From Octopus vulgaris (taxonomy: Eukaryota): a stretch of DNA of 64,000 nt. The stretch lies in contig OX597819.1 in assembly GCA_951406725.2 (NCBI GenBank), positions 22,940,001 to 23,004,000 on the forward strand. Reading direction: 5' to 3'. The notes below the pieces were generated by a model. The model was not told the DNA's origin. It ran no database searches and saw nothing but the letters and a program-made list of their open reading frames with translations. A program made the position numbers and the translations under genes. The stretch's first letter is position 1. Every line of letters begins with the position of its first letter. Of this stretch, positions 3,412-62,840 are shown in pieces.

Positions 3412-3495
<84 letters not shown>

Positions 3496-3497
<2 letters not shown>

Positions 3498-3657
3498 GAC
3501 GGGCTTCTTTCAGTTTCCGTCTACCAAATCCACTCACAAGGCTTCGGTCGATCTGAAGCTATAGTAGAAAACACTTGCCCAAGGTGACACGCAGTGCGAC
3601 TGAACCTGGAACTATGTGGTTGGTAAACAAGCTACTTACTACATAGACAATCGTGTG

Positions 3658-3660
<3 letters not shown>
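3496..3660 (-). mobile_element. SINE family A, 5' half
   Basis: Reverse complement of 4357-4515. Confidence 0.8.
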
Positions 3661-3717
<57 letters not shown>

Positions 3718-3820
3718 TCAATAATAATATAGGGTGAAATCAATTAATTTGGAGTAATCATTAATTTCACCAAGTAGATTTCGGCATGTAAAAGCCCCAT
3801 TCGAGGAACGTTTAAGTAAT

Positions 3821-4154
3821 ACTAAGTAATTAAGGGTTTAGCAACGATTTGCCAATACACAATTATCTATAATTGTAGAGTCCTACGCTGAGGAGAAAAG
3901 TAGTCGGGTAAGACATAATTATTAAATTTTTATGCTCTCCTACGACTTAATTTCGAAACGTACGTCCGTAGGTGACTTAATATGTAATGATTGTCGTCAT
4001 TTCTTTCTCTTTTACCTGCGTTGTTTGCCTTTTAAGTGCTGTGGTTTTACTGAGATCTCTCTTTTAAGTAGAAAGAATAGCCATAACTATTTGACTGCTA
4101 TTTCTAAATTCGGTGTGTGGTGAGGCAAATCGTTGCTAAACCCTTAATTACTTA

Positions 4155-4156
<2 letters not shown>
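3821..4156. repeat. 33-bp perfect inverted repeat flanking the 3882 hammerhead
   Basis: actaagtaattaagggtttagcaacgatttgcc (3821-3853) and its reverse complement (4124-4156). Confidence 0.9.
3882..3972 (+). ncRNA. Type I hammerhead ribozyme, complete core
   Basis: Stem I cctacg/cgtagg; CTGAGGA; stem II GAAA/TTTC extended by agtcg/cgact and cataa/ttatg; GAAA; palindromic stem III ACGTACGT; GUC site, predicted cut after 3966. Confidence 0.88.
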
Positions 4157-4188
<32 letters not shown>

Positions 4189-4356
4189 TGAATTCAATTT
4201 GTAAAGCATATATTTTTTGTTTGTTTGTTTTTCTAAACTAAAGCCTGAAACTCGCGTGCTGATTTTTAGCCCCTGTTTTATCTGAAGGTATTGGTAGCAT
4301 GAAACTCAGTCACGAGACAAAATTAAGCAATAGTTGCGATAAAAACGACATAACGA

Positions 4357-4745
4357 CAGGAGTGGCTGTGTGGTAAGTAGCTTGCTAACCAACCACATGG
4401 TTCCGGGTTCAGTCCCACTGCGTGGCATCTTGGGCAAGTGTCTTCTGCTATAGCCCCGGGCCGACCAATGCCTTGTGAGTGGATTTGGTAGACGGAAACT
4501 GAAAGTAGCCTGTCGTATATATGTATATATATATGTATGTGTGTGTGTTTGTCCCCCTAGCATTGCTTGACAATCGATGCTGGTGTGTTTACGTCTCCGT
4601 CACTTAGCGGTTCGGCAAAAGAGACCGATAGAATAAGTACTGGGCTTACAAAGAATAAGTCCCGGGGTTGATTTGCTCGACTAAAGGCGGTGCCCCAGCA
4701 CGGCCGCAGTCAAATGACTGAAACAAGTAAAAGAGTAAAGAGTAA
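4357..4745 (+). mobile_element. tRNA-derived SINE family A, full length
   Basis: A box tggctgtgtgg, B box ggttcagtccc, internal (TA)(TG) microsatellite, tail gactgaaacaagtaaaagag; many copies in the window. Confidence 0.9.
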
Positions 4746-32255: not shown

Positions 32256-33590
32256 TGTGTTTCCAGAAGAGAAATATGGTAGGATAGAAAACTGAACTGA
32301 CATCTTACGGAGAAAGCTTGCGCACCCTGGGTATCAGAAGAGTGATTTTCAAGGATGACAACTTATCTCCGCTGCTTTTTGCCCTCTGCATGACACCCCT
32401 GACCTTGATACTTAGGAAAATGAACCTGGGGTGCCAACTAAAGGGACAATCCTAAACAATCGACCACCTCCTCTTCATGGATGATTTGAAACTGTTTGGC
32501 AAGAATGAGACACAAATGAGTTCCTTGGTGAACACAGTCCACTGTTTTAGTGCTATTATTAGAAGGTAATAAGTGCAGAATAATCTACCTAAAAAGAGGC
32601 AAGGTACAGTCCATAGCAGGGATGGAATTACCGAAAAGAAACTTGATTAAACAAATTGAAATGGAAGGCTACGAATACCTTGGTGTATTACAGTTCAACG
32701 ACTTAATGGAGAAGGAAATGAAACAGCAGCTGAGGACGGAATATTTCCGAAGACTAAGGTTGGTGTTGCGCTTAAAATTGACCGGGTGGAAGAAAACCCA
32801 AGCCGTTAAAACGTTGGCGATAGCATCACTTCGGTATGGAGCGGGAATTATCAAATGGCAAAAGAGAGAAGTGATGAAATGCATAGCCATACCAGAAAAA
32901 TGTTGATAGTTCACGTAGCCTGCCACACCAAGAGTGACACCGATGGTCTGTACTTGTCCAGAAGAAATGGTGACAGGGGTTAGATCAGTTGCCATGACTG
33001 TATCAAAGCGGAGGAAAATAGCTTGCGGTAGTATCTAAAAATGCCGTTGAGCCATTGTTAAAACATACGAAGGCCGGTGTCATCGAAACTGAATATTGTG
33101 TAATGAAAGAAAAATTTAAAGAAAAAAGTGAACGCAAAAAAAGAAAAAGCACGGAAGAAAAATTGCATGGTCAGTTTGCAAGAGATATGAACGCCAAGAC
33201 AGATACAGAGGACGGGTGTCTATGGTTGAGGAGAATTGAACTGAAAATAGAGACAGAAGTACTAATATGCGCAGCTGAAGAACAAGCGTAAGGAACAATT
33301 ATATGAAGTGCAGAATTGACAACACTACCGAGAGCGACAAATGCAGAATGTGTGTGGTAACAGGGGTGAAATAGCGAATGCCCGAAATTGGCACAACGCG
33401 AATACAAAAGTGCCCATGGCAATGTGGCAAGGATTATCCACTTGGAGCTCTGTGGAAATTACGGCCTACAAAGAGCAAAGACGTGGTATGAACAAACCCT
33501 ACGAGACACCGAGAATGAGAATTGCAAAAGAGTAGGCGTGATACCAATAGCAATTGGTGTACTTGGAAGTATCAGTACTCAACTACCAAC
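32256..33590 (+). mobile_element. R4/Dong-type non-LTR retrotransposon fragment (RT, zinc knuckle, part of RLE)
   Basis: IFKDDNLSPLLF, HLLFMDDLKLF, YEYLGV, HPKSD, LHGQF, CRMC..CPKLAQREY..HGNVARIIH, VIPIAIGVLG; frameshifts and stops; begins directly after a long (AAT)n tract. Confidence 0.9.
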
Positions 33591-34330
33591 ATGACCCTAA
33601 TGTCATTGCAATTACCATCATTCTTCTGCAATGAGCAAGGGTGCCATAGTTTGCCCTCATTTCTCACATCAACTCTAGTTTCAAAGTGTAACTATACTAT
33701 TTTATACGAGCTACTCCTATTAATAAATATATATCCTGCCATACACCGTCATGAACTTCCTTTAAGCATTTATTTGAGGGCATATAAAGTCACCTTCCAG
33801 CCTTCACGAAGAAATTTATACCATTTCCTCCTTCGTTGAGCAATTTCCTCTGGTAAATATATTTTTTGACATACGATTGTCACGATTTTTTCTTGACTTC
33901 TTTTGAGCTACACCTAAAATTGTTCCTTTGGCTTATATTAGCAAAGAAGCTGCTGTTACGAATTATTGTTAATATATTACAATCTTATATTGTTCTTTCC
34001 ATCTAATGCCATAAATTCGTGCTTTGGGGAATTTAAACGTGACGAGCTGTCGTTATAAAGTATATTTATTTAATTATAATTCTTCCGTTTAACCATTTTC
34101 CTTCCAGTTTATACGTTTGATTCGTTTCTAATTACTGCTGCTGAACAAATCAAATGATACAGAATTTTTTCAAATATTCTCATTGACAAACCAATGAAAG
34201 AGCCATATTGAAAATATGAAAGCACAAGGAAAATTTAACAAAACATTAAATTTCTGTAACTTAAACCGTTCGTCTACACCAGTGGGTGCCCCAACCTGTT
34301 GACACTAGTTCCCAGTACTGTTTATAATGT

Positions 34331-34425
34331 TTGCGGCTGAAGAGAGCTTTAAACCATCTTTTATATCAATAATACACTGATGTAGTAACAGATTGTTGAT
34401 AAAGCTTGAAACACGTGTACCGCGA
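34331..34425 (+). ncRNA. Type I hammerhead ribozyme, complete core
   Basis: Stem I ttgcgg/ccgcga; CTGAAGA; stem II GAGCTTT/AAAGCTT plus atcaataat/attgttgat; GAAA; palindrome ACACGTGT; GUA site, predicted cut after 34419. Confidence 0.85.
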
Positions 34426-34749
34426 TATCCTTTGTGTTCTGTTTTTAATTTATATTTGATATATATACTCTCTCACTTCTGCCACTATCTGGCATTTACA
34501 GGTGCTTACAATTATCAAGTATTCACTCTAAATTTACAGTACCTACTATATATAATGTTTAATTCGTATATATAGAAGTAATTTTTAGTGACAGAACCAC
34601 CTTCAACACAATCAACACTGAAAGGTCTTATACCCAACCAGTCCATCTGGAGTGATTTTCATTGAGAGATGTTCATTTTAGTACATCTAATTTGAATGTC
34701 TTTTTCCTGTGTACTCGGAAGTAATATTCCCTAATAATTATAATATATA

Positions 34750-62184: not shown

Positions 62185-62840
62185 TAATATAGGATGGAGT
62201 TTTTTTACAGAAAAAAATTTCAGCAAAAAATGTGGCAGCATATCAAAATACCTTTAAAAGTTAAAATTATAAACAACTTATCAACTAGGGAAAAAGAAAA
62301 TTATTTCTATGCCAATATGCTGATAACAGACTTTTAAATCGTCAAGTTCCACATATTATTATATACCCACTACAGAAATACGTTGTGCTGAAATCGAAGA
62401 AAGCTAGCCAAAAGAATTTTTTAAAAAAAGTTCGTTATTTCTATATTGAATCAATTTCGGAATTAATCTCATAATAGATTTTTTCCTCGTCAGTAGAAAA
62501 TACGAATAGAAATAAATGAAACACCTACATGCGCGCATAAAAAAAACGCCGAAGCAAAAATCATGAATATACATAAGCACCCCAGATATATCTAAATATA
62601 AAATCCTTTGGTTAGTCTCAGCACATGTGTGAACCGTTCTCCACTACAGCTTATAGTAGTTACCAGTTCCTATAGCGAATAGTAATAAATCTACTACTAA
62701 TATAGGATGAAGTTTTTTACAGAAAAAAATTCCATCGAAAGGTGTGGCAGCATATTAACATACCTTTAAATGTTAAAATTCTAAACAACTTATAAACAAG
62801 GGCAAAAGAAAATTATTTCTATGCCAATATGCTGATAACA
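62182..62840 (-). repeat. 513-bp unit plus partial tandem copy containing a hammerhead
   Basis: 62182-62328 is repeated at 62695-62840; a related inverted fragment lies at about 10449-10530. Confidence 0.85.
62438..62499 (-). ncRNA. Type I hammerhead ribozyme, complete core
   Basis: Minus strand: tttcta CTGACGA GGAAaaAATCTattatgAGATTaaTTCC GAAA ttgattcaa TA tagaaa; 6-bp stem I, two-part stem II, stem III ATTG/CAAT, AUA site. Confidence 0.88.

What the first reader, a model, noticed from the sequence alone, without database searches (positions are those of the whole stretch)
3713..4157. Intact hammerhead bracketed by a perfect 33-bp inverted repeat, inside (TA)n
Seen: a roughly 445-bp non-coding island between two (TA)n tracts, holding a GUC-site hammerhead with a long stem II and an exact inverted repeat. 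Inference: the perfect repeat and intact core suggest a young insertion, making this the best candidate for an active ribozyme. The transcript could fold into a rod with the ribozyme in the loop.
Basis: partly seen in the sequence, partly recalled or inferred. Interest (0 to 1): 0.75.

Follow-up and report, generated by a model that had tools for sequence, protein, structure and literature searches.

The report
Truncated two-armed hammerhead retrozyme insertion
This island is one truncated copy of a roughly 580-base non-coding repeat, present in many hundreds of copies, that carries a hammerhead-ribozyme motif and is likely pasted into TA microsatellites by Penelope-type jumping genes; the inverted repeat is the overlap of two back-to-back partial copies, and self-cutting is untested.

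Summary
In detail: a 444-bp island between (TA)n tracts, an exact 33-bp inverted repeat (3821-3853/4124-4156) and a canonical type I hammerhead core with a GUC site at 3966. The island is a less-than-unit copy of a 581-nt tandem-unit non-coding element (975 exact matches to a 19-nt tag). It is made of two 5'-truncated arms joined head to head, one ending at fixed site A and the other 107 nt further at site B. The 33 bp are their overlap. Half of 67 insertions are two-armed, and 24 of 25 scorable pairs are one A plus one B. A perfect 33-mer is expected in about 75% of copies, and the island RNA is predicted to sequester the ribozyme, so this copy is not a special candidate. Sister families share a covarying 3' RNA structure (12,454 motif matches) and carry different hammerheads at the same place. 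An active Hydra-clade Penelope element shows the same insertion pattern and is the likely, unproven, mobiliser. Verdict: a new member of the animal non-LTR retrozymes. The scan noted the same pattern in other families of this genome.

The parts
3660..3713 (.). Left (TA)n target tract
3714..3853 (-). Inverted 5'-truncated arm, 140 bp, unit position 158 to long end B (about 297)
3714..3820 (-). 107-bp 'tail' between end A and end B, present on this arm only; holds the 3' strand of the conserved helix and the terminal hairpin
3821..3853 (-). Left copy of the 33-bp inverted repeat (unit 158-190); the head-to-head junction is at 3853/3854
3854..4156 (+). Direct 5'-truncated arm, 303 bp, unit position 469 through the cut site to short end A (190)
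3882..3972 (+). Type I hammerhead motif: 6-bp stem I, CUGAGGA, 60-nt stem II, GAAA, 2-bp stem III with palindromic loop; predicted cut after 3966
4101..4156 (+). 5' half of the RNA structure shared by the sister families (motif starts at 4101), ending at A
4124..4156 (+). Right copy of the 33-bp inverted repeat
4158..4186 (.). Right (TA)n target tract; the G at 4157 interrupts the TA run and shortens the repeat from the 35 bp matched in many other copies

Best explanation
The island is a truncated, two-armed genomic copy of a 581-nt non-coding tandem-unit element with a type I hammerhead motif (a non-LTR retrozyme), likely copied into a (TA)n tract by the enzyme of a Penelope-like retrotransposon. 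Shown: the unit, its copies, the two fixed 3' ends, the head-to-head arms, the (TA)n targets and read-through across the cut site. Inferred: tandem copies are transcribed; the hammerheads cut the RNA into units (probably best as dimers) that may circularise; a Penelope-type RT-endonuclease binds the conserved 3' structure, nicks both strands of (TA)n and primes one cDNA at A and one at B using 2-4 nt of UA pairing; both cDNAs stop early and are joined head to head. Here they were 303 and 140 nt long, leaving a 33-bp overlap. A Hydra-clade element is the leading candidate enzyme. This copy is probably a dead end.
For: Unit of 581 nt between two cut sites in a natural tandem; 583-nt units in others; an array with 6 direct plus 1 inverted ribozyme (listing). 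67 insertions: 33 single-armed, 34 head-to-head, no other order; 101 arms end at A 54, B 35, elsewhere 12; 91 of 101 are followed by (TA)3; 24 of 25 A/B pairs are one of each (p 7e-7). 31 of 101 arms exceed one unit. 889 of 975 post-cut tags continue into the five bases before the cut; 28 of 30 inspected read through an intact core. Signs of selection on the ribozyme: 121 of 133 copies keep CUGANGA while N7 is U 54, G 40, A 27, and a stem II pair changes A-U to G-C. Sister families carry different hammerheads 118-146 nt upstream of the shared motif: 164 of 236 arms against 12 of 255 antisense controls. Circular units fold better than shuffles, z -4.5 to -7.2 in 8 of 8 units (20 shuffles each). 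A 778-codon Hydra-type ORF family has the same short-end/long-end pattern in 16 of 16 two-armed copies with both ends visible, and one insertion joins its endonuclease fragment directly to this element (L119). PMC8557442 describes the inverted 5'-truncated copy, the one-ended tail and Hydra's (TA)n bias; PMC11167929 shows that tail ends are the two RT start sites.
Against: No cleavage, RNA or circle was shown. No autonomous element sharing sequence with the unit was found: the Hydra family's terminal region gave only hits with E 0.8 or worse, and 70 further Hydra-like loci and the GIY-YIG loci gave none in a terminal-repeat position. The one composite (L119) has two long ends, against the A/B rule, and could be a later insertion with deletion; another copy abuts a Neptune-like element. 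The 107-bp tail is longer than the published 30-40 bp. Stem III has pair probability 0.003-0.017 and the active fold lies 2.6 kcal/mol above the minimum. In PMC11167929 the ribozyme was not needed for insertion in vitro and priming was not homology-based. The partner arm was strictly the closest arm in only 6 of 25 insertions, so a single template molecule is not shown.
Confidence: 0.85

Rival explanations
1. The copies are only short terminal-repeat fragments of an autonomous Penelope-like element whose full-length copy I did not sample.
For: 5'-truncated, inverted, tailed fragments are the normal debris of such elements (PMC8557442). Only a fraction of the copies was inspected.
Against: Arms run past B into non-coding sequence that closes a 581-nt loop back to the ribozyme; 31 of 101 arms exceed one unit with no ORF.
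Confidence: 0.06
2. The element moves through uncut multimeric RNA, and the hammerhead is a conserved passenger or acts only at another step; no circle is involved. (This is a variant of the best explanation, not an exclusive rival.)
For: Read-through across the cut site fits uncut multimers as well as circles. Ribozyme mutants still inserted in vitro (PMC11167929); 8 of 9 Xenopus dimers did not cleave (10.64898/2026.07.22.740005).
Against: Core conservation with a free N7 and covarying stems across families argues for selection on the fold. Circles are documented for mussel, coral and axolotl retrozymes (PMC7229834).
Confidence: 0.3
3. One reading: a young unit in which the 33-bp inverted repeat is a functional stem that closes a rod and presents an active ribozyme.
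For: The repeat is exact and would pair; the isolated 116-nt fragment forms stems I and II with P 0.46-0.89.
Against: Overlap length varies from 0 to 581 bp and 33 of 67 insertions have a single arm. The ribozyme stems have P about 0 in the island RNA.
Confidence: 0.04
4. A miniature inverted-repeat DNA transposon that inserts at TA.
For: Short, non-coding, inverted repeat, TA flanks.
Against: The repeat is not terminal on the left; copies have variable 5' ends, fixed 3' ends and tandem units.
Confidence: 0.01

Closest known systems
Animal non-LTR retrozymes (Cervera and de la Pena 2020, PMC7229834, parts 2-3 of 6 read; Li, Clavereau and Pollet, bioRxiv 10.64898/2026.07.22.740005, parts 1-3 of 5 read; supplements not seen)
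   Same: Non-coding tandem unit, one type I hammerhead per unit with a 2-bp stem III and palindromic tetraloop, GC below 50%, highly paired predicted circle, dispersed monomers to multimers, proposed dependence on Penelope-like elements.
   Different: The unit is 581 nt, above the 170-400 nt tested in PMC7229834 but within the 51-972 bp of the preprint. Stem II is 60 nt instead of 4 bp plus a loop. Insertions show two fixed ends and head-to-head arms in (TA)n, which the parts I read do not describe. RNA and cleavage are not shown here.
Hydra-clade Penelope-like elements (Craig et al. 2021, PMC8557442; passages and section 11 read, supplements not seen)
   Same: (TA)n targets, canonical hammerhead, inverted 5'-truncated arm, tail at one end only. 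A family in this genome with DKT and CxxC/CxH motifs has the same end pattern and a long-stem-II hammerhead.
   Different: This element has no ORF and no detectable sequence similarity to that family's terminal region. The tails are 107 bp (this element) and about 152 bp (the Hydra family) instead of 30-40 bp.
Poseidon element of Anolis, PAc (Frangieh et al. 2024, PMC11167929; parts 1-2 of 4 read)
   Same: Two internal RT start sites that bound the tail; both target strands cut and extended; AT-rich targets; predicted dimeric enzyme.
   Different: PAc starts in an AC-rich stem-loop without homology to the target and with no strand difference in vitro. Here the starts are at UA in AU-rich loops that match the (TA)n primer, and the two arms almost always use different sites.
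Rfam Hammerhead_1 (RF00163)
   Same: Core and stem I match.
   Different: 24 bits against a gathering score of 34, probably because of the long stem II.

Membership tests
Type I hammerhead ribozyme | CUGANGA / GAAA / NUH core with three stems, stem I open | tested here: met
Type I hammerhead ribozyme | Self-cleavage at the predicted site | not testable with these tools
   No bench data; the active fold is predicted 2.6 kcal/mol above the minimum for the isolated fragment
Animal non-LTR retrozyme | Short tandem unit with one type I hammerhead per unit | tested here: met
   581-583-nt units, arrays up to 6 direct ribozymes; the window's own copy is less than one unit
Animal non-LTR retrozyme | Non-coding, no LTRs, low GC | tested here: met
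   Longest stop-free stretch 54 codons; GC 0.36-0.37; variable 5' ends. PBS and PPT were not searched for.
Animal non-LTR retrozyme | Highly self-paired predicted circular RNA | tested here: met
   z -5.0 to -6.3 for 4 of 4 units of this family; a prediction only
Animal non-LTR retrozyme | Expressed as linear and circular monomers | not testable with these tools
   Only assembled contigs were on offer, which cannot show ends, strand or circles
Non-autonomous derivative of a Penelope-like element | Insertion signature: 5' truncation, inverted upstream copy, tail at one end, microsatellite target | tested here: met
Non-autonomous derivative of a Penelope-like element | Sequence shared with the terminal repeat of an autonomous partner | tested here: inconclusive
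   None found among the families sampled; the sampling was partial
Autonomous Penelope-like element | ORF with RT and GIY-YIG endonuclease | tested here: not met
MITE / DNA transposon | Terminal inverted repeats of fixed length on every copy | tested here: not met
   Overlap 0-581 bp; 33 of 67 insertions single-armed

The most novel reading that the evidence does not exclude
This genome holds a radiation of 560-595-nt ribozyme circles (over 12,000 tagged arms) that share a conserved RNA module, not a ribozyme sequence, for recruiting a Hydra-clade Penelope enzyme. The enzyme dimer primes both strands of one (TA)n break at two different structure-defined sites about 107 nt apart on circular RNA. 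That would be a general two-site priming mechanism for Penelope-type inversions and would name the enzyme that integrates animal retrozymes.
Probability: 0.35. Interest if true: 0.68.

Novelty: new member of a known kind. Interest (0 to 1): 0.37.

Why it matters
The island itself is an ordinary truncated copy. The family matters as a test system. How animal retrozymes get into DNA, and why Penelope-like elements leave tandem and inverted copies with a one-ended tail, are open questions. Here the two start sites, the RNA structure around them and an apparently active candidate enzyme with intact ORFs can all be read from one genome, so the in vitro assay of PMC11167929 could be applied directly. 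Other windows of this scan reported the same pattern in other families, so this one adds a family and a shared structure rather than a first sighting.

Tried and rejected
Rfam gathering search of the window: no match. Folding of 3870-3985 is no better than shuffles (z -0.25). Expression: no RNA holder listed; contigs of guessed-RNA runs cover parts of the unit but cannot show transcription, ends or circles. Insertion polymorphism: contigs of 4 runs left the right flank uncovered and no joint skipped the island; uninformative. Partner search: a Pfam accession recalled from memory is not in the library; GIY-YIG hits were dominated by a 781-codon family with no similarity to the unit; 30 plus 20 motif loci showed only non-coding families; 30 plus 40 Hydra-like loci gave only short weak hits. 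Single-molecule origin of both arms: not shown; the arms are closer than the median other arm in 24 of 25 cases, but rare variants were shared in 41 cases and unshared in 123. 5' ends at the cut site: 0 of 101 in a set biased against them, and 1 of 30 in an unbiased set (L408). Rows dropped: 3 duplicate loci before the count of 67; 3 of 34 two-armed insertions gave no arm-to-arm alignment; 9 of 34 were not scored. Literature: searches listed no paper on a cephalopod retrozyme or on a strict short-end/long-end pairing; one search was swamped by unrelated papers, and Repbase, Dfam and subscription journals were not searchable. (tertiary contact) was seen as a listing only and is not used. A look-up of earlier notes by sequence found nothing.

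Full report
Observation. The island, the exact 33-bp inverted repeat (3821-3853/4124-4156) and the hammerhead motif are present as described. All core positions are canonical and the predicted cut is after C3966. Stem III is two pairs round a palindromic loop, the form that PMC4209133 (parts 1-2 of 4 read) calls the canonical metazoan type I motif, which works best as a dimer. PMC7229834 reports that some such motifs also cut as monomers. Rfam gives a sub-threshold match (24 bits, E 0.0024). The genome is 2.8 Gb; my guess that it is an octopus rests on recall of the flanking SINE and is not tested.

What it is. Matches to the island fall into two blocks of opposite orientation. Mapped on a natural tandem copy, the element is a 581-nt unit measured from cut site to cut site. 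The window holds unit 158 to about 297 inverted (3714-3853), joined to unit 469-581-190 direct (3854-4156). The 33 bp are unit 158-190, copied in both arms. A 19-nt tag occurs 975 times and an exact 24-mer of the core 278 times, against 0 for both controls. No reading frame exceeds 54 codons.

Insertion anatomy. I examined 67 insertions that carry the exact core 24-mer, drawn from the first 100 listed matches (loci; 3 duplicates removed; 12 were picked because they had neighbouring matches, so two-armed and long copies are somewhat over-represented). Of these, 33 have one arm and 34 have two, always head to head with the 3' ends outward. Of 101 arms, 54 end at A (about 190), 35 at B (about 284-298) and 12 elsewhere; 91 are followed by at least (TA)3. 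Of 25 pairs with both ends at A or B, 24 have one of each (p 7e-7 against independence). Junctions are near blunt, from -12 to +6 nt. Ends fall at TA in the unit, giving a few bases of match to the target. PMC8557442 describes an inverted 5'-truncated copy and a tail at one end only; PMC11167929 shows that the tail lies between two RT start sites. The island therefore has the Penelope signature, with a longer tail (107 bp).

Template. 31 of 101 arms exceed one unit. 889 of 975 post-cut tags continue into the five bases before the cut. Of 30 inspected, 28 read through an intact core, one into a rearranged copy, and one starts at the cut. The template was thus uncut multimer or re-ligated circle; these data cannot tell which.

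Is the ribozyme under selection? Among 133 distinct copies, 121 keep CUGANGA, and position 7 takes three states; a stem II pair covaries (the 3' half of the core was partly fixed by how loci were chosen). Sister families of 558-594 nt share the region round A and B at about 65-83% identity. A motif from that region occurs 12,454 times against 1 for the control. Of 236 arms long enough to test, 164 have a hammerhead cut site 118-146 nt upstream, against 12 of 255 antisense controls. Two families supply 160 of the 164; four other stem I sequences, two with the U3-A8 core variant, are single examples. A 14-family alignment gives a 21-pair structure with 95.6% of cells paired and 6 pairs changed on both sides; 0 of 500 shuffles reach the covariation score, but 22 of 500 reach the pair count. 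One helix strand was fixed by my search pattern, and relatedness inflates such scores. Site A lies in an unpaired AU-rich loop of the predicted circle in both families whose folds were printed.

Is this copy special? No. It differs from the majority of 28 comparison loci at 8 of 443 positions, 4 of them private and two of those in stem II. Arms of two-armed copies differ by 0.87%, so a perfect 33-mer has probability about 0.75. In the isolated fragment, stems I and II form (P 0.46-0.89) but stem III hardly does; in the island RNA, stems I and II have P about 0. The isolated fragment may well cut in a tube, but one ribozyme in less than one unit cannot yield a monomer or circle.

Which enzyme? 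Not identified by sequence. One insertion (L119) joins a Hydra-type endonuclease fragment to 1.9 units of this element at a short shared sequence, head to head with the Hydra 3' end. That family has intact 778-codon frames with DKT and CxxC/CxH motifs (the CxCX5C linker is not evident), many copies identical at protein level, a long-stem-II hammerhead, and ends at 52 and 204 nt after its cut site; 16 of 16 two-armed copies with both ends visible pair a short with a long end. Against this: no sequence similarity of its terminal region to the unit, two long ends in L119, and a second copy abutting a Neptune-like element. I put the Hydra clade at about 55% as the mobiliser.

Comparison and verdict. 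It works like, and meets the testable criteria of, an animal non-LTR retrozyme mobilised by a Penelope-like element, a link argued in PMC7229834 and bioRxiv 10.64898/2026.07.22.740005. Expression, cleavage and circles are untested. My searches listed no description of this family; repeat databases and the papers' supplements were not seen and may hold it. Earlier notes of this scan describe the same short-end/long-end pattern in other families of this genome; I had measured it before reading the note that states the rule, and those notes are not independent support. New member of a known kind; interest 0.37.

Noticed in passing
window 34330-34430 (+): A second type I hammerhead-like motif with long stem II and GUA site; a near-identical copy turned up in another fetched locus, so it is a different repeat family.
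   Followed up: partly
window 62444-62493 (-): A third hammerhead-like motif (CUGACGA core, AUA site).
   Followed up: no
window 1180 and 15738 (+): Minimal hammerhead-like motifs of the kind found at the 3' end of the Neptune-like element in L267.
   Followed up: no
window 3474-3656 and 4356-4538: Two SINE-like copies in opposite orientation flank the island (183 nt, 86% complementary), so a read-through RNA could form a second, outer stem.
   Followed up: no
window about 32260-33590 (+): Degraded non-LTR reverse transcriptase remnant after an (ATA)n tract; read by eye, family not tested.
   Followed up: no
L119 (G000:C4:97756500-97760500): Composite insertion joining a Hydra-type Penelope fragment to 1.9 units of this element.
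   Followed up: yes
L300-L303: Young Hydra-type family: 2863-bp unit, 778-codon frame, tail of about 152 bp, hammerhead core with C at position 4.
   Followed up: partly
G000:C5:140709900-140715900: Palindromic array of about ten 558-560-nt units of a sister family whose hammerhead has a GUU site.
   Followed up: partly
L206 (G000:C16:20834500-20841500): Penelope-like element with a 781-codon RT and GIY-YIG frame preceded by a separate 359-codon frame; many copies have the same frame length.
   Followed up: partly
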